Assembly: GCF_009914755.1 (NCBI RefSeq)
Contig: NC_060930.1
Direction: 5' to 3' (one strand)
Source: the human T2T-CHM13v2.0 reference genome, Homo sapiens
DNA length: 64,000 nt
Part shown: piece by piece, positions 49,256 to 58,057 of the stretch
How the letters are laid out: the number at the start of each line of letters is the position of its first letter
How positions within the stretch are numbered: position 1 is the first letter of the stretch
Notes under the pieces: generated by a model
The model's database searches: none
What the model saw: the letters and a program-made list of their open reading frames with translations, nothing else
What the model was told of the DNA's origin: nothing
Program-made: the position numbers and the translations under genes

Positions 49256-50046
<791 letters not shown>

Positions 50047-50270
50047 TGATCCCCCCGCCTCGGCCTCCCAAAGTGCTGGAATTATAGGCATGAGCAACCA
50101 CTCCCAGCCTAAAATTGACATTTTAAAATGTTATTTTATTTATTCATTTTAAAATAATAGTAATAAGCCAGGCACGGGCCGGGCGCAGTGGCTCACGCCT
50201 GTAGTCCCAGCACTTTGGGAGGCCAAGGTAAGCAGATCATGAGGTCAGGAGATCGAGACCATCCTGGCTA

Positions 50271-50609
<339 letters not shown>

Positions 50610-51066
50610 TTAACCAGGTGTGGTGGCACATACCTGTAGTCCCAGCTACTTGGGAAGATTGCTTGAATTTCGGGAGTTTGAGGCTACAGTGAAATACAAT
50701 GGAGCCACTGCATACCAGCCTGGGTGACAGAGTGAGACCCTTTCTCTAAAAAAACAAAATGACAATAATAGCCACTACATGTTATAACATTTTTATTAAA
50801 TCAATTTTTATCCAATATTAACATAACATTACATTTTTAATGAAAAATAACTATTTGCCAAAACAAAAAAGAATGGCATCATTCTACATTTTTGCAAATA
50901 TGTATAGCGGGGCTCATTAGGCAATTGCCTGGACTCTCATCCCAGTCCACTTCTATTTATTAGCTGGTTAGCATTGCAGCAATCATCCTCATTCTAATGT
51001 ATCCATTGTCCATTGCTGAGAGAAAGAAATGTATGAACTCTACCTAATGTTGGTGAGCAGTGTGCC

Positions 51067-51408
51067 TTATATGGTTTGGCTCTGTGTCCCCACCCAGATC
51101 TCACCTTGAATTGTAATAATCCCCACATGTAAAGGGCAAGACCAGGTGGAAGTAATCGGATCATGGGGGCAGTTTCCCCCATGCTGTTCTCGTGATGAGT
51201 GACTCTCACGACATCTGATGGTTTTATAAGCGTCTGGCATTTCCCCTACTGGCGCTCATTCATTCTCCTACCACCTTGTGAAAAGGTGCCTTCCGCCATG
51301 ATTGTAAGTTTCCTGAGGTCTCCGCAGCAATGTGGAACTGTGAGTCAATTAAACCTCTTTTCTTTGTAAGGTACCCAGTCTCGTGTAGCAGCATAACAGA
51401 CTAATACA
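51067..51408 (+). mobile_element. Solo THE1 (ERVL-MaLR) LTR
   Basis: atatggtttggctctgtgtccccaccc...gtgagtcaattaaacctc...ctaataca; 5-bp TSD gtgcc (51062-51066, 51409-51413). Confidence 0.93.
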
Positions 51409-51699
51409 GTGCCTTTGATAATTTTATAACATTTATTATTGGGAAACAACTGGAGCAAAGAAGGCCTGTACTCCAACACAGGTTCATGCACCCTACCATG
51501 CGAGCGCCACCTGGACTGGCTGGAGATGGGATCTGTGCACTGCTGAGGCCTTGTACTGGCTAGCCAGGATCTGAGGGAGCCAATTAGCGGGTGCCCCTGG
51601 AGGAGGTGGAGCTTACAGAAGGAACTAACCTGGCACCATGGGCCAATCTAGAGCAGTCTTGTCCTGTCCCCAGTCCACAAGGGATTCTCTCTAATTTCA

Positions 51700-52019
<320 letters not shown>

Positions 52020-52089
52020 CAGATCCCAGTCTGTTTGCAGGCAGTGGCACCCAGCCTGGTTGCAACCCTGTGCGGGGTGACACGGCTCT

Positions 52090-52551
52090 ATGGGAAGTGT
52101 GTCCATCCCGGAAAGGGACTCCTTTTGCATACTTGCCTCACTGGTGCAGGTTTAGGCACATTCTGAAACCATCAGTGCTTTACTTGGTGGCTGGTCACCT
52201 GGAAAAGATATTTGGTAAGTGTCCTGGTGTCTTTACCACTGCGCTACACTTTTGACTCCCCTGGCTCACCCTAAACCACCCGCCTGAAACCTAAGGCAGA
52301 ATCTAGTGTCCTGCAGGCCAGCATCCCAGTGACATCTTTCCCCTCTCCCCCCAATCCCCTCCCAGCCTTGCCCCATTTGGTAAAACTTCAACCTTCCTTT
52401 CTACACAGGCTCAAGCAGAGTCTTCCTCCTGGTGTTCCAGAAGGAGTTCAAGGTCCTGCTCCATATGGGACAGCTAGATTCTGAGGGCAATGTTGAGATC
52501 CTCATCTCCAGAAGGTGCTGGTGCCAGAAATATGACAAAAGGCTGATTGAC
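52090..52551 (+). pseudogene. Unprocessed KHDC3L(FILIA)/OOEP-like KH-domain pseudogene: exon 1 52090-52214, intron 52215-52408, truncated exon 2 52409-52551
   Basis: Exon 1 ends LPHW...LKPSVLYLVAGHLEKIF-G|GTAAGT; polypyrimidine acceptor at 52407-52408, phase 1; exon 2 [40 protein letters not shown] has 12/40 identities, ungapped, to recalled KHDC3L exon 2; 1-nt frameshift after the ATG; cut by Alus. Confidence 0.75.
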
Positions 52552-53888
52552 GGGCCAGGCGCGGTGGCTCACGCCTGTATTCCCAGCACTTTGGGAGGCC
52601 AAGGCGGGTGGATCATGAGGTCAAGAGTTCGAGACCATCCTGGCCAATATGGTGAAACCCTGTCTCTACTAAAAATACAAAAAATTAGCTGGGCGTGGTG
52701 GCACGCATCTGTAGTCCCAACTACTTGGGAGGCTGAGGCAGGAGAATTGCTTGAACCGGGAGGAGGAGGTTGCAGTGAGCAGAGATCGTGCCACTGCTCT
52801 CCAGCCTGGGCGGCAGACTGAGTGAGATTCCGTCTAAAAAAAAAGAGGCCTGGTGTGGCGGCTCAGGCCTGTAATCCTAGCACTTTGGGAGGCTGAGGCA
52901 GGTGGATTGCCTGAGGTCAAGAGGTCAGGACCAGCCTGTCCAACATGGTGAAACCCCATCTCTACTAAAAATGCAAAAATTAGCCAGATGTGGTGGCACA
53001 TGCTTGTAATCCCAGCTACTTCGGAGGCTGAGGCAGGAGAATCGCTTGAACCCAGAGTGTGGAAGTTGCAGTGAACCAAGATCATGCCACTTCACTCCAA
53101 CCTGGGCGAAAGAGCAAAACTTCATCTCAAAAAAAGAAAAGTATTTAAAAAAAAAAAAAACTAGCCAGGCTTTGTAGCATGTGCCTGTTGCCCCTTCTAA
53201 TTGGAAGGCTGAGGTGGGAAGATCACTTGAGCTTGGGAGGTTAAGGCTGCAGTGAGCAGTGGTTGCACCACCTCACTCCAACCTGGGGTCAGAAGGAGAC
53301 CCTATCTCAAAAAAAACAACTTTGTAAACTGTGATCCACACCTCAGTGCAGTGGGATAAAACTGTCCAGTAGCCTTGGCCTCCGAGGCCCTGTCTGAATC
53401 CTCCTTTTTTGCACCTGTAGCTAAAGGGCAGCAAGTGTTTTCTGTACTCTATATTCACTTTTAGACAAGTCACTTTTAGAGACTTGTTTAAAGATTCAAA
53501 ATGAGTTATAATAAAAAATAAATGTAAAATATACCTAGCAATTGGTATCGATTGACAAGAAAGCTTTCTTTGCTTGTTCCCACATGAAGAAAAAAGGTGA
53601 AGAATTACAAAAGGTTGGTTCAGCTTTTCAATTTTTTTGTGTTAAGTGGGTGTAGCTAGGATAATTAATGTCCCAGGGAACTTTTGTAAATAAGGAAGAA
53701 CATTCCTGTTTATTCTTTCATTAATGCTAGTTTTGAAAAAATAGGCTCTATAAATTAAGTTTTCATGTGTTGAAACATTGACAAATTGATTCCATTCTCC
53801 TTAACTGTTAGTTAAAAAGAACAAGTCTGGTCGGGCACGGTGGCTCACACCTGTAATTCAAGACTGGGAAGTGGAGGCAGGCGGATCA

Positions 53889-54176
<288 letters not shown>

Positions 54177-54625
54177 TTATCAGTTAGTATAAAACTTTAA
54201 AATATCGCTTGGGCCAAGCGCAATTGCTTATATCTGTAATCCCAGCACTTTGGGAGACCGAGGCAGGAAGATTGCTTGAGTCCAGGAGTTCAAAACAAGC
54301 CTAGGCAGTATAGTGAGACCTTGTCTCTATAAAAAAAACTTAAAAATTAGCCAGGCATGTTGGCATGTACCTATATAGTCCCACCTACAGAGGTAGCAGT
54401 AGGTGGGACAGAGGCAAGAGGATCACTTGGGCCTGGATTCAGGCTGCAGTGAGCCATGATCACACCAGCCACTGTGCTATAGTCTGTATGATGGAGATCG
54501 TGTCTCAAAAAAAAAAAAAAATCACTAAATTAGCATTTGGTATATGTCAGGTTTTATGGTTTTTACTGTTTGTGAAGTTAAATATCTTTTTATACCTTTG
54601 TCAAACATTTGTGTTTCTTTTGTAG

Positions 54626-54778
<153 letters not shown>

Positions 54779-54849
54779 TGAGTAGCTAGGATTACAAGCA
54801 CAAGCCACCACGCCTGGCCAATTTTTTTTTTTTTTTTTTGTACTTTTAG

Positions 54850-55182
<333 letters not shown>

Positions 55183-55289
55183 TAATTTCAGTTTTCATTT
55201 GGTTTTACTTTTATTTATAGTACTTTTTCAGTATCACAAATGTTGATGTTTTTATGGGACTAAATCCATTCAACTTTTTCATTATGAAT

Positions 55290-55507
55290 TTTTGCATTAT
55301 GATTTTTATTTTATTACAGTATATTGTTGTAATTTTTTGTTTTATTGTTGTTAATTTCTTACTGTGCCTAACATAAATTAAACTTTATCATGGTATGTAT
55401 GCATAGGAAAAATCACAGTACATATAGAGTTCAGTTATATTCATGGTTTCTGGCATCCACTGGAGGTCTTAGACCATATCCCCCAAGGATAAGGGGGCAC
55501 TATTGTA
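55290..55507 (+). mobile_element. MER44/Tigger7-like DNA transposon 3' part
   Basis: ttactgtgcctaa...aaattaaactttatcat...ggcatccactggaggtctt...ggataaggggg...tg-ta terminal repeat. Confidence 0.75.
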
Positions 55508-55730
55508 CACGAATTTTACAGATGAGGACAGTGTGAGAACATCAAATAACGTTTTTCCTGCCTCTTTGTCACTTTTCATGTGAATACATTCTCTCACACT
55601 TGGCTACAAACTCCTTTTTGGCATGGATGATAAATCTGTATTCTTCTACTACTGAGACCCTAGGTACACAGTTAAACACTAGATGATTGACTGTTACAGT
55701 GATTGCATATTTATCAACCAGTTAGCCTTA

Positions 55731-56070
<340 letters not shown>

Positions 56071-57179
56071 TCAACTATATGGACATTTGACTGTATATAA
56101 ATCTCTCTATATGCTCTACAGTATCAAGAAAAGTCTGCGAAAATTGCATATTAATAATTGGGAAAATATATTGAAATTTTTTTCTCCATTTGCCTCAATG
56201 ATAACATGGGACCATGGATTTTTTTTTTTTTTTTTTTTTTTGAAGAGATGTGGTGTTGCTGTCACCCAGGCTGGAGTGCAGTGGCGAACATGGCTCACTG
56301 CAGCCTTGACCTCTTAGGCTCGAGCAATCCTCCTGCCTCAGTCCCCCAAGTAACTTGGACTATAGGCACCCACCACCACACCCAGCTAATGTTTATATTT
56401 TTCGTAGAGACAGAGTTTTGCTGTGTTGCCAGGCTGATCAACTCCTGAGCTTATGCAATCCACTCACCTCAGCCTCCCAAAGTGCCAGGATTACAGGCGT
56501 GAGCCACCTTGCCCGGCCAAGATGAGGTATTATTACATCATTATTGTAAGGTACTGTTGGGCCCTCTTTCTATTTTGTTATTTTGTATGTGATCATCATT
56601 GTTGCTCATCATTCCTGTTCTTGGTATAGTTCCTACTTTTTCTGCGTTCCTTTGGCCTATTCACAGTTTACTACATCCATCCTTCTCTACTTTTATAGTT
56701 AGAGAAATGTGATAGCCAGTCCTACACTTAATAGAAGAAATAATACCCAGATATTTACCCTCCTTCAAATTAAAATTAATAAAGATTAAATATATCCTTT
56801 TTTGTTTTATTTATTTTTGAGGAGACAGTCTCACTGTCACCCAGGTTGGAGTGCAATGGCACAATCACAACTCACTACAGCCTCTACCTACCCATGCTCA
56901 GGTGATCCTCCCATCTCAGCCTTCCAAGTAGCTGGAACCACAGGCATGCACCACCATGCTCGGCTAATGTTTGTATTTTATTTTTTGTAGAAATGGGGTT
57001 TTGCCATGTTGTCCAGGCTGGTCTCGAACTCCTGGGCTCAAGCAATCAGCCCACCTCAGCCTCCCAAAGTGCTGAGATTACTGGCATGACCCAACATGCC
57101 AAGCCAAACATATCCTTTTATGTGATTTATTTGTGAATTACAATGGTCTTTAATTTCTTTTTTTTTTTTTTTTTTTTGA

Positions 57180-57341
<162 letters not shown>

Positions 57342-58057
57342 TAGTAGCGATGGGGTTTCTCCATATTGGTCAGGCTGGTCTCAAACTCCAGACCTCAGGT
57401 GACCTGTCCACCTTGGCCTCCCAAAGTGCTGGGATTACAGGTGTGAGCCACCATGCCCAACCTAATTTCTTTTTTAATAGCTTTTTAAATCTTGTCAGTT
57501 TGCATTTTCCCCAGAACTCCCTTCTGTGATCATATATCTTCTTCCTAAAGCACATCCTTTAGAAGTTTTGGCTGGGCATGGTGGCTTACGCCTGTAATCC
57601 CAACACTTTGGGAGACCAAGTAGGGCAAATCACTTGAGGTCAGGAGTTTGAGATCAGCCTGGCCAACATGGGGAAACCCTGTCTCTACTAAAAATACAAA
57701 AATTAGCCTGGCATGGTGGTGCCTGTCTGTAATCCCAGCACTTTGGGAGGCCAAGGCAGGCGGATCACCTGAGATCAGGAGTTTGAGACTAGCCTAACAT
57801 GGAGAAACCTTGTCTCTACTAAAAATAGAAATTTAGCCAGGCGTGGTGGCACACACCTGTAATCCCAGCTACTCAGGAGGCTAAGGCAGGAGAATCACTT
57901 GAACCTGGGAGGCAGAGGTTGCAGTGAGCCAAGCTCATGCCACGGCACTCCAGCCTGGGTGACAGAACGAGACTCTCTCAAAAAAAAAAACAAAAAACCA
58001 CCTGGGTGCAGTGGGTCACACCTGTAATCCCAGCATTTCCTGAAGGTCAAGAGTTCA

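What the first reader, a model, noticed from the sequence alone, without database searches (positions are those of the whole stretch)
52090..53522. KHDC3L/FILIA-like gene with intact splice sites, disabled by a 1-nt insertion and an Alu pile-up
Deleting one T from the T4 run at 52123-52126 restores [42 protein letters not shown], ending at a perfect GTAAGT donor. KHDC3L exon 1 as recalled also ends EKIF-G. After a 194-nt intron, exon 2 is stop-free and shares G,Q,L,H,L,D,G,E,I,L,R,Q (12/40, no gaps) with KHDC3L GRGGERIPHVQGMSQILIHVNRLDPNGEAEILVFGRPSYQ. It stops at Alus (52552-53318) with no TSD, and AATAAA signals follow at 53510 and 53517. Low identity plus intact structure points to an old distinct paralog lost relatively recently, in primates given the Alu involvement.
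Basis: partly seen in the sequence, partly recalled or inferred. Interest (0 to 1): 0.85.

Follow-up and report, generated by a model that had tools for sequence, protein, structure and literature searches.

The report
Broken KHDC3L-like gene relic near KHDC1
This is the dead front part (first exon, intron and most of the second exon) of an extra, very divergent member of the egg-and-embryo KHDC1/DPPA5/KHDC3L/OOEP gene cluster, absent as a gene or pseudogene from the RefSeq table supplied here, and now partly reused as an exon of a non-coding RNA.

Summary
The similarity to the family is real. Profile tests hit both exon pieces collinearly (Pfam E 0.013 and 2.9e-4; hhalign P 2.2e-4 and 1.7e-5). 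No decoy window matched them. The intron sits at the family's position and phase. Ungapped DNA identity to KHDC3L, anchored at the splice sites, is 71/144 and 41/79, about twice shuffled levels.

It is an unprocessed, truncated pseudogene. It has one frameshift in exon 1. Exon 2 is cut after 144 of about 180 nt by an Alu block without target-site duplications. No exon 3 was found. Another Alu lies 56 nt upstream of the ATG.

KHDC3L is the nearest relative by protein score, by nhmmer and by intron length (194 vs 196 nt). Identity is only 27%, as far apart as the established paralogs are from each other. The tree cannot fix its place.

"Old distinct paralog" is supported. "Lost recently in primates" fits the nearly open frame and the Alus, but is untested. 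I found no orthologous protein in any mammal, and no mammalian genomes were available.

RefSeq annotates no pseudogene here, and 9 of 31 KHDC1-AS1 transcripts use its exon 2 acceptor. Modest interest.

The parts
52090..52214 (+). Relic exon 1. ATG at 52090. One frameshift is needed somewhere in 52090-52152 to reach the domain frame. The exon ends in phase 1 inside the Gly codon of ...EKIF-G.
   Evidence: Pfam MOEP19 positions 2-28, E 0.013. hhalign P 2.2e-4 on family columns 30-56. 41/79 nt identical to the KHDC3L exon 1 tail, against 20.3 for shuffles.
52123..52126 (+). It is a plausible site for the frameshift, not a proven one.
   Evidence: The ATG frame is open to 52152, and the domain frame is open from 51995.
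52215..52408 (+). Intron 1, 194 nt. GTAAGT donor, pyrimidine tract and CAG acceptor.
   Evidence: It sits at the same position and phase as intron 1 of all five human paralogs. KHDC3L intron 1 is 196 nt. Sequence similarity to paralog introns is only marginal, z 1.9.
52409..52552 (+). Relic exon 2: the first 144 nt of an expected 180-183 nt, stop-free, broken off at an Alu.
   Evidence: Pfam MOEP19 positions 34-75, E 2.9e-4. hhalign P 1.7e-5. 71/144 nt identical to KHDC3L exon 2. nhmmer E 3e-7.
52553..52844 (+). Full-length Alu (Alu1) abutting the exon 2 break. It is the least decayed of the four nearby Alus, with 11 CpG left.
   Evidence: No target-site duplication found.
52847..53162 (+). 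Second full-length Alu (Alu2, body to 53131) with its A-rich tail. 4 CpG left.
53163..53316 (+). Alu right-arm-like fragment, the most decayed of the four (0 CpG). It is 66-73% identical to the other Alus.
51712..52019 (+). Alu inserted 56 nt upstream of the ATG, flanked by a 14-nt target-site duplication (51698-51711 and 52020-52033). It probably separates the relic from its old promoter. That last point is inference.
   Evidence: The paralogs' 5' UTRs run 51-105 nt by RefSeq coordinates.
52409..53613 (+). KHDC1-AS1 lncRNA exon in four forms, ending at 52514, 52558, 52563 or 53613. All use the relic's exon 2 acceptor. The donors lie inside relic exon 2 (after 52514) or inside Alu1 (after 52558 and 52563).
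   Evidence: RefSeq table: 9 of 31 KHDC1-AS1 transcripts. Donor dinucleotides read.
53510..53522 (+). Two overlapping-spaced AATAAA hexamers. They are present, but a link to the relic is unproven.
   Evidence: With the Alu block removed, only about 335 nt separate the exon 2 start from these signals. That is too short for the rest of exon 2, an intron 2 and an exon 3 of the sizes seen in the paralogs.
52056..52198 (-). C6orf147 lncRNA exon on the opposite strand, overlapping relic exon 1.
   Evidence: RefSeq table.

Best explanation
The locus is a non-functional, unprocessed and 3'-truncated pseudogene. It is the remnant of a sixth, highly divergent member of the eutherian KHDC1/DPPA5/KHDC3L/OOEP (MOEP19, KH-like) cluster on 6q13, nearest to KHDC3L.

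What survives is the start codon region, exon 1 with one frameshift, intron 1 with working-looking splice sites, and the first 144 nt of exon 2.

Inferred history:
- The copy arose by tandem duplication about when the other family members split, in the eutherian stem.
- It diverged while still coding.
- It lost constraint much later, probably in the primate lineage. There it acquired a frameshift and an Alu just upstream of the ATG.
- An Alu block replaced the end of exon 2 and everything after it. The lack of target-site duplications suggests an Alu-Alu recombination deletion rather than a clean insertion.

Today it makes no family protein. Its only visible activity is that the old exon 2 acceptor serves as a cassette exon of the lncRNA KHDC1-AS1, with new donors inside the exon and inside the Alu.

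Shown here: homology, gene structure, the lesions and the reuse in annotated transcripts. Inferred: the timing, the deletion mechanism and the former coding function.
For: Homology:
- Pfam MOEP19 hits both pieces collinearly, at profile positions 2-28 and 34-75.
- hhalign against 46 family proteins gives P 2.2e-4 and 1.7e-5, on family columns 30-56 and 71-101.
- With a KHDC3-clade HMM, the two pieces are the top 2 of 2,911 six-frame pieces (E 0.0054 and 0.17). With a family HMM they come next after the four true KHDC1/KHDC1L exons (E 0.008 and 0.088).
- Seven decoy windows gave best E values of 0.47 and 2.5.
- Ungapped DNA identity anchored at the splice sites is 71/144 and 41/79, against shuffle maxima of 54 and 33.

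Structure:
- All five human paralogs end exon 1 in phase 1 at ...[IL]F-G, and so does the relic.
- It lies inside the cluster, in a KHDC1 intron.
- It has an intron, so it is not a retrocopy.

Nearest relative KHDC3L.

Ancient origin: identity is at paralog level, intron similarity is saturated as in other paralog pairs, and the DNA is unique in the genome.

Lesions.

Late loss of constraint:
- In a neutral simulation, 0 stops and at most 1 frameshift in 89 codons has probability 0.41-0.52 at d = 0.05.
- The probability falls to 0.017-0.057 at d = 0.17 and below 1e-4 at d = 0.55. That last level is the one needed to reach about 30% protein identity neutrally.

Reuse: 9 of 31 KHDC1-AS1 RefSeq transcripts use the acceptor at 52409.
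Against: - Each piece is below Pfam's 30-bit cut-off (15.8 and 21.2 bits).
- Genome-wide, the exon 2 hit is only E 1.12, ranking 26th of 30, and exon 1 is not listed.
- phmmer of either piece against PDB sequences found nothing. The Atlas search gave no usable hit.
- Tree placement is weak, and no alternative placement is rejected.
- No orthologous protein was found in any mammal: 1 candidate (itself), then 197 family proteins scored, with best local identity 11/26 and 16/31. This is odd for a gene that stayed functional until primates.
- The relic has lost the invariant Gly of the vFG motif and 12 of 18 columns where three of four clades share the major residue. That fits long relaxed constraint as well as divergence.
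- The ATG may not be the ancestral start. The domain frame has no ATG upstream.
- The simulation is crude.
Confidence: 0.8

Rival explanations
1. Early-dead duplicate. A tandem copy of a KHDC3L/OOEP-type gene died soon after duplication in early eutherians and has drifted ever since. The nearly open frame and the preserved splice sites are luck, helped by the reader's selection of open-looking sequence and by lncRNA use of the acceptor.
For: - No orthologous protein was found in any mammal.
- The invariant Gly and 12 of 18 columns where three of four clades share the major residue are lost.
- The end branch is very long, 3.8 changes per column.
- The acceptor is used by KHDC1-AS1, which could preserve it.
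Against: - Neutral drift from the eutherian root (d about 0.17-0.2, a recalled rate) gives 0 stops and at most 1 frameshift in only 0.8-5.7% of simulations.
- Neutral drift to about 30% identity (d about 0.55) gives it in fewer than 1 in 10,000.
- The donor remains a perfect GTAAGT although no RefSeq transcript uses it.
Confidence: 0.15
2. Recent primate-specific duplicate of KHDC3L that decayed quickly.
For: - KHDC3L is the nearest relative.
- The AU test does not reject nesting with anthropoid KHDC3, p 0.36.
Against: - Exon DNA identity to human KHDC3L is only 49% (71/144), the same as between old paralogs at 48-54%.
- Intron similarity is marginal.
- No DNA match elsewhere in the genome.
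- The relic scores slightly better against non-anthropoid KHDC3 than against primate KHDC3L.
- A copy younger than about 90 My should still be well over 70% identical. That figure is inference from recalled neutral rates.
Confidence: 0.02
3. Chance resemblance: ordinary intronic DNA that happens to look like two exons.
For: - Each piece alone is below Pfam's cut-off.
- The exon 2 hit is E 1.12 genome-wide.
- No PDB or Atlas hit.
Against: - Two independent collinear hits lie 194 nt apart on one strand inside the family's own cluster, with canonical splice sites at the family's intron position and phase.
- No decoy approaches them.
- Ungapped DNA identity is more than 5 sd above shuffles in both exons.
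- nhmmer E 3e-7 to KHDC3L.
Confidence: 0.01
4. The locus is still functional in some form. It could act as a regulated cassette exon of KHDC1-AS1. It could encode a short peptide from the ATG inside exon 2 (the 118-aa ORF P0001 that runs into the Alu). Or it could be a coding allele if the T run is polymorphic.
For: - 9 of 31 KHDC1-AS1 RefSeq transcripts include the exon.
- Passages of a FANTOM6 preprint (10.1101/2022.02.16.480297) report that KHDC1-AS1 knockdown affects KCNQ5 in cis.
- The ORF P0001 exists in a protein collection.
Against: - The exon is optional: 22 of 31 transcripts skip it.
- The ORF is mostly Alu-derived.
- Even with the frame restored, the last part of the MOEP19 domain and exon 3 are missing.
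- No RefSeq plus-strand transcript contains exon 1.
Confidence: 0.05

Closest known systems
KHDC3L (ECAT1/FILIA homologue), chr6:74,539,355-74,540,868 in this assembly, about 87 kb away
   Same: - Same cluster and strand.
- Exon 1 ends ...EKIF-G in phase 1.
- Intron 1 is 196 nt against 194 nt.
- It is the best protein and DNA match: 9/22 in the core of exon 2, 71/144 nt, nhmmer E 3e-7.
   Different: - Only about 27% protein identity to the KHDC3 clade.
- The relic's exon 1 has about 41 codons from its ATG, against 56 in KHDC3L.
- There is no recognisable FPTLVQL-type N-terminus and no exon 3 with the repeat-rich tail.
- The invariant Gly of vFGRP is replaced.
- It is frameshifted and truncated.
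OOEP
   Same: Second-closest clade at 24.4% identity. It has the same intron phase. The AU test does not reject a sister relation, p 0.37.
   Different: nhmmer finds no DNA-level match. Intron 1 is 217 nt. OOEP is intact and functional.
KHDC1P1, the annotated unprocessed pseudogene in the same cluster (chr6:74,385,548-74,386,692)
   Same: It is an unprocessed family pseudogene in the 6q13 cluster that keeps the exon-intron structure.
   Different: - KHDC1P1 is a recent KHDC1 copy with all three exons. Its matches exceed the Pfam cut-off at 49.1 and 30.6 bits, and it is annotated.
- The relic is far more divergent, belongs to no living human subfamily, lacks its 3' third, and carries no pseudogene annotation in the RefSeq table given.
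Processed pseudogenes DPPA5P1-4 and OOEPP1-2
   Same: They are dead family copies that the same Pfam model detects.
   Different: They match the model in one uninterrupted stretch spanning both exons, or in two abutting stretches with no 190-nt gap (OOEPP2). They lie on other chromosomes and are close to their parents. The relic keeps intron 1 and sits in the cluster, so it arose by DNA duplication.

Membership tests
KHDC1/DPPA5/KHDC3L/OOEP family (Pfam PF16005, MOEP19 KH-like domain) | Match to the MOEP19 profile at or above the curated 30-bit cut-off | tested here: inconclusive
   The pieces score 15.8 bits (profile 2-28) and 21.2 bits (profile 34-75), each below 30. The two matches are collinear and independent. 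hhalign gives P 2.2e-4 and 1.7e-5.
KHDC1/DPPA5/KHDC3L/OOEP family (Pfam PF16005, MOEP19 KH-like domain) | Phase-1 intron splitting the Gly codon after ...[IL]F, followed by an exon 2 of 180-183 nt | tested here: met
   All five human paralogs have this structure. The relic has GTAAGT at 52215 and an acceptor at 52408/52409, in the same phase. Only 144 nt of exon 2 remain.
KHDC1/DPPA5/KHDC3L/OOEP family (Pfam PF16005, MOEP19 KH-like domain) | Location in the 6q13 cluster between KHDC1P1 and DDX43 | tested here: met
   Window coordinates and the RefSeq table. The relic is about 33 kb from the KHDC1 coding exons and 87 kb from KHDC3L.
KHDC1/DPPA5/KHDC3L/OOEP family (Pfam PF16005, MOEP19 KH-like domain) | Residues invariant in all four clades | tested here: inconclusive
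   4 of 5 are kept (P, V, F and the junction G), and the Gly of the vFG motif is lost. Of the columns where three of four clades share the major residue, 6 of 18 are kept (125 family rows).
KHDC1/DPPA5/KHDC3L/OOEP family (Pfam PF16005, MOEP19 KH-like domain) | Third exon and an intact open reading frame | tested here: not met
   There is a frameshift in exon 1. Exon 2 is cut by an Alu. No exon 3 or exon 2 remainder was found by tblastn, blastn or nhmmer in 50001-58000. It is therefore a pseudogene of the family, not a gene.
KHDC1/DPPA5/KHDC3L/OOEP family (Pfam PF16005, MOEP19 KH-like domain) | KH-like fold | not tested
   The domain spans both exons, and the rules bar handing in a joined peptide. 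The pieces alone are too short to be informative.
KHDC3/KHDC3L orthologue group | Groups with KHDC3 to the exclusion of the other clades | tested here: inconclusive
   The best tree puts it as sister to all 20 KHDC3 rows, with support 79/64. The AU test does not reject OOEP (0.374), DPPA5 (0.465) or KHDC1 (0.429). Score ranking, nhmmer and intron length favour KHDC3L.
KHDC3/KHDC3L orthologue group | Within-group identity (KHDC3 rows average 69%, minimum 48%) | tested here: not met
   The relic is 24-31% identical to the 20 KHDC3 rows. It is not a KHDC3 orthologue or a recent copy.
Processed (retrotransposed) pseudogene | No introns, and located away from the parent gene | tested here: not met
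   It has a 194-nt intron at the family position and lies inside the cluster.
Unitary pseudogene (a gene lost in humans but functional in other species) | An intact orthologue at the syntenic site in other mammals | not testable with these tools
   No mammalian genome collection was available. Protein word searches of named sources found no orthologue. These searches need shared 5-residue words, and one search listed only 120 of its 280 hits.

The most novel reading that the evidence does not exclude
The relic marks a sixth ancient lineage of the eutherian MOEP19 family, a sister of KHDC3/FILIA. It stayed protein-coding for most of mammalian history and died only in the primate lineage. Intact, so far unrecognised orthologues may therefore still work in the oocytes or early embryos of some mammals, possibly alongside the subcortical maternal complex.
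Probability: 0.2. Interest if true: 0.5.

Novelty: new member of a known kind. Interest (0 to 1): 0.3.

Why it matters
The five living genes of this cluster act in oocytes, early embryos and pluripotent cells. KHDC3L and OOEP belong to the subcortical maternal complex. In passages I read, the family is described as specific to eutherian mammals (PMC2938380) and as gaining and losing members between species (PMC7226043).

A sixth lineage would add a data point on how the cluster grew and shrank. If it is intact elsewhere, it would be a candidate maternal-effect gene in other mammals.

For human annotation the gain is small. It amounts to one unannotated unprocessed pseudogene, plus an explanation of where a KHDC1-AS1 cassette exon and its splice acceptor came from. 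RefSeq also leaves at least three strong family retrocopies unannotated. Missing annotation is therefore not unusual for this family.

Tried and rejected
- **Exon 2 remainder and exon 3.** I looked downstream of the Alu block. tblastn of the five human paralogs against 50001-58000 gave only chance or Alu-derived hits beyond the two exons. All three frames after 53317 stop early. blastn and nhmmer of 53317-53830 against six paralog loci found nothing significant.
- **Longer exon 1.** The domain frame is open back to 51995 but has no ATG. Across the upstream Alu's insertion site, the frame meets a stop and no ATG.
- **Orthologous proteins.**
  - The exon 2 piece, placed inside a 137-aa stop-free reference and searched with region 1-46, found only the window's own ORF.
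  - A family alignment gave 280 hits, of which 120 were listed.
  - An alignment of a KHDC3L protein plus the relic pieces gave 91 hits, all listed.
  - None of the 197 proteins scored is closer to the relic than ordinary KHDC3 orthologues are.
  - The 160 unlisted hits, and the 469 and 101 candidates left out as sample-only, were never seen.
- **PDB and Atlas.** PDB sequence searches with both pieces gave 0 hits. The Atlas search gave scores of 0.78 or less with no family, so it is a blank.
- **Tree.** The first careful tree of 126 rows did not finish, so the quick tree was used. A 47-row careful tree replaced it.
- **Ungapped DNA comparison with KHDC1 and KHDC1L exon 2.** The 24-26% figures are out of register because those exons carry an extra codon. 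I disregard them.
- **Alu subfamilies.** I did not assign them, having no repeat library and building no consensus. I give only CpG counts and pairwise identities. The primate specificity of Alus is general knowledge, not a result from any call.
- **Literature.**
  - Four searches listed no paper whose title or abstract start points to a KHDC3L-like pseudogene between KHDC1 and DPPA5. I saw the listings only.
  - I read passages of PMC7226043, 10.1101/2022.02.16.480297, PMC13224869 and PMC2938380.
  - The family's founding paper (Pierre et al. 2007, PMID 17913455) is not held. I have not seen it or GENCODE/Ensembl pseudogene sets, so they may already list this relic.
  - I asked for no supplements.
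- **Structure prediction.** I did not run it.
Full report
**What is there.** On the plus strand an ATG at 52090 opens a frame that stops after 21 codons. The +1 frame reads ...[30 protein letters not shown] and then G. That Gly codon is split after its first base by a GTAAGT donor at 52215. After 194 nt, a pyrimidine tract and CAG lead into a stop-free stretch from 52409. It reads [47 protein letters not shown] and runs straight into an Alu at 52553. The ATG frame and the domain frame are both open only between 52090 and 52152. One frameshift somewhere in that stretch is therefore needed, and the T run is a plausible site but not a proven one.

**Is it more than chance?** I spliced the five human family genes from RefSeq coordinates. 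KHDC1, KHDC1L, DPPA5, KHDC3L and OOEP all end exon 1 in phase 1 at ...[IL]F-G, followed by an exon 2 of 180-183 nt. The candidate has the same junction.

- Pfam's MOEP19 model (PF16005) matches the exon 1 piece at profile positions 2-28 (E 0.013, 15.8 bits). It matches the exon 2 piece at positions 34-75 (E 2.9e-4, 21.2 bits). The matches are collinear, but each is below the 30-bit cut-off.
- A six-frame scan of the whole genome with that model lists the exon 2 piece only at E 1.12, ranking 26th of 30 matches. It does not list exon 1. Without context the signal would be lost.
- With context it is strong. hhalign against an alignment of 46 family proteins gives P 1.7e-5 for exon 2 (family columns 71-101) and 2.2e-4 for exon 1 (columns 30-56).
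- An HMM I built from KHDC3 orthologues ranks the two pieces first and second among 2,911 six-frame pieces of the window (E 0.0054 and 0.17). A family-wide HMM ranks them right after the four real KHDC1/KHDC1L exons (E 0.008 and 0.088).
- One reversed and six shuffled copies of the window gave nothing better than E 0.47 and 2.5.
- Without any alignment freedom, counting identical bases from the splice sites, exon 2 shares 71/144 nt with KHDC3L exon 2. Shuffles give 36.4 with sd 5.2 and a maximum of 54 in 2,000.
- The last 79 nt of exon 1 share 41/79. Shuffles give 20.3 with sd 3.8 and a maximum of 33 in 2,000.

Chance is excluded.

**What kind of copy it is.** It keeps an intron at the family position and lies inside the 6q13 cluster, within a long KHDC1 intron. 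It is therefore a DNA-level (unprocessed) copy, unlike the DPPA5P and OOEPP retrocopies. Its DNA has no second copy in the genome.

It is broken in at least three ways:
- A frameshift in exon 1.
- Loss of everything after nt 144 of exon 2. No remainder of exon 2 and no exon 3 was found by tblastn, blastn or nhmmer within 50001-58000. All frames stop soon after the Alu block.
- An Alu with a clean 14-nt target-site duplication (51698-51711 and 52020-52033) lying 56 nt upstream of the ATG. That is where the short 5' UTRs of the paralogs (51-105 nt) would place the promoter.

With the Alu block taken out, only about 335 nt lie between the exon 2 start and the AATAAA signals. That is too little for the rest of the gene, so those signals probably do not belong to it. 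This is inference from the exon and intron sizes.

The Alu block consists of two full-length Alus and a right-arm-like fragment, with 11, 4 and 0 CpGs left. No flanking duplications were found. This fits an Alu-Alu recombination deletion that removed the 3' part, but that is inference only.

**Which relative.** Two word searches of named protein sources returned 197 family proteins. Scored against the two pieces, the best are all KHDC3/KHDC3L orthologues, with non-anthropoid ones slightly ahead of primate ones.

- Over about 87 aligned columns, the relic is 27.4% identical to 20 KHDC3 rows, 24.4% to OOEP, 15.5% to DPPA5 and 15.8% to KHDC1. The established clades differ from each other by 23-36%.
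- nhmmer with the relic's DNA hits KHDC3L alone among six paralog loci (E 3e-7). The match spans the exon 1 tail, the intron and exon 2.
- Intron 1 is 194 nt against 196 in KHDC3L, 217 in OOEP, 168 in KHDC1, 81 in DPPA5 and 948 in KHDC1L.
- A careful likelihood tree (47 rows, 89 columns) puts the relic as sister to all KHDC3 rows. Support is only 79/64, and the end branch is 3.8 changes per column.
- AU tests do not reject joining it to OOEP (0.374), DPPA5 (0.465), KHDC1 (0.429) or even anthropoid KHDC3 (0.36).

"KHDC3L-like" is thus the best reading, backed by several weak but concordant lines, and is not proven.

**Age.** Exon DNA identity to KHDC3L (49%) equals that between DPPA5, KHDC3L and OOEP, the three paralogs compared this way (48-54%). 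Intron similarity is as marginal as between other paralog pairs, z 1.9 against 1.3-2.3. A primate-specific copy of KHDC3L is therefore excluded. The split is about as old as the family itself. Passages of PMC2938380 describe the family as eutherian-specific, and passages of PMC7226043 say that KHDC1 and DPPA5 are absent from several mammals.

**When did it die?** A simple neutral simulation on the matching 89 codons of human KHDC3L gives these probabilities for no stop codon and at most one frameshift:
- 0.41-0.52 at 0.05 substitutions per site.
- 0.12-0.21 at 0.10.
- 0.017-0.057 at 0.17.
- Below 1e-4 at 0.55, the level needed to reach about 30% protein identity by drift alone.

Most of the divergence therefore happened while the frame was kept open, that is, while the copy was coding. 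Constraint was probably lost late. Alus being primate-specific (general knowledge) places the truncation and the promoter-proximal insertion in primates.

Several points weaken this:
- The indel-to-substitution ratios are recalled values.
- The relic has lost the family's invariant Gly (vFG) and 12 of 18 columns where three of four clades share the major residue.
- No orthologous protein turned up in any mammal.
- That last blank is itself weak. The searches need shared 5-residue words, 160 hits were not listed, sample-only proteins were left out, and unannotated genes would be missed.

**What it does now.** RefSeq has no gene or pseudogene for it. Nine of 31 KHDC1-AS1 lncRNA transcripts splice into the relic's exon 2 acceptor at 52409. 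They leave through new donors, one inside the old exon (after 52514) and two inside the Alu (after 52558 and 52563). One form runs on to 53613. No plus-strand RefSeq transcript uses exon 1, and a C6orf147 exon overlaps it on the other strand. The relic's only visible present role is as raw material for lncRNA exons. Passages of a FANTOM6 preprint report a cis effect of KHDC1-AS1 knockdown on KCNQ5. They say nothing about this exon.

**Verdict.**
The locus is a genuine, old, KHDC3L-leaning family member, dead and truncated. Recent loss in primates is plausible but untested.
- It is a new member of a known kind, if it is indeed unlisted elsewhere. I could not see Pierre et al. 2007 or GENCODE.
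- Interest is modest, because dead copies in tandem clusters are common. RefSeq also leaves three strong family retrocopies unannotated, at chr1:106.58 Mb, chr10:8.73 Mb and chr4:166.33 Mb.

Noticed in passing
window 51698-52033: The Alu at 51712-52019 has a clean 14-nt target-site duplication (51698-51711 and 52020-52033). It lies 56 nt upstream of the relic's ATG and retains 7 CpGs.
   Followed up: yes
window 52409-52565: KHDC1-AS1 isoforms leave the relic exon through three alternative donors. One is a GT after 52514 inside old exon 2. One is a GC after 52558 and one a GT after 52563, both inside the Alu, which is Alu exonisation.
   Followed up: partly
window 52465-52821: A 118-aa ORF (P0001) starts at the Met inside relic exon 2 and reads into the Alu. 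It is present in the protein collection as a predicted protein with 4 member sequences. It is mostly Alu-derived and probably not a real protein.
   Followed up: partly
G000 C1:106581869-106582114, C10:8725430-8725633, C4:166332672-166332879: Three strong MOEP19 matches (E 2e-20, 4e-18 and 8e-10), each uninterrupted or nearly so, lie where RefSeq lists no gene or pseudogene. They are likely unannotated retrocopies of DPPA5 or OOEP.
   Followed up: partly
G000 C23:22583727-22583921: A weak MOEP19 match (E 0.38) falls inside the DDX53 coding region, in a 643-aa open frame. It is presumably the KH domain of that DEAD-box protein cross-matching the KH-like model.
   Followed up: no
L001 1720-1800 (chr6:74530720-74530800): DPPA5 intron 1 is only 81 nt, a multiple of three with no stop. 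Exon 1, the intron and exon 2 therefore form one open frame of 272 aa in the genome.
   Followed up: no
window 51526-51546 vs 52090-52110: A second ATG followed by codons for G-S-V lies about 560 nt upstream (MGSVHC then a stop), echoing the relic's MGSVSIP start. It is short and probably chance.
   Followed up: no
window 52056-52198, minus strand: The C6orf147 lncRNA exon overlaps relic exon 1 in antisense. Read by eye, its flanks look like a GC-AG intron pair.
   Followed up: no
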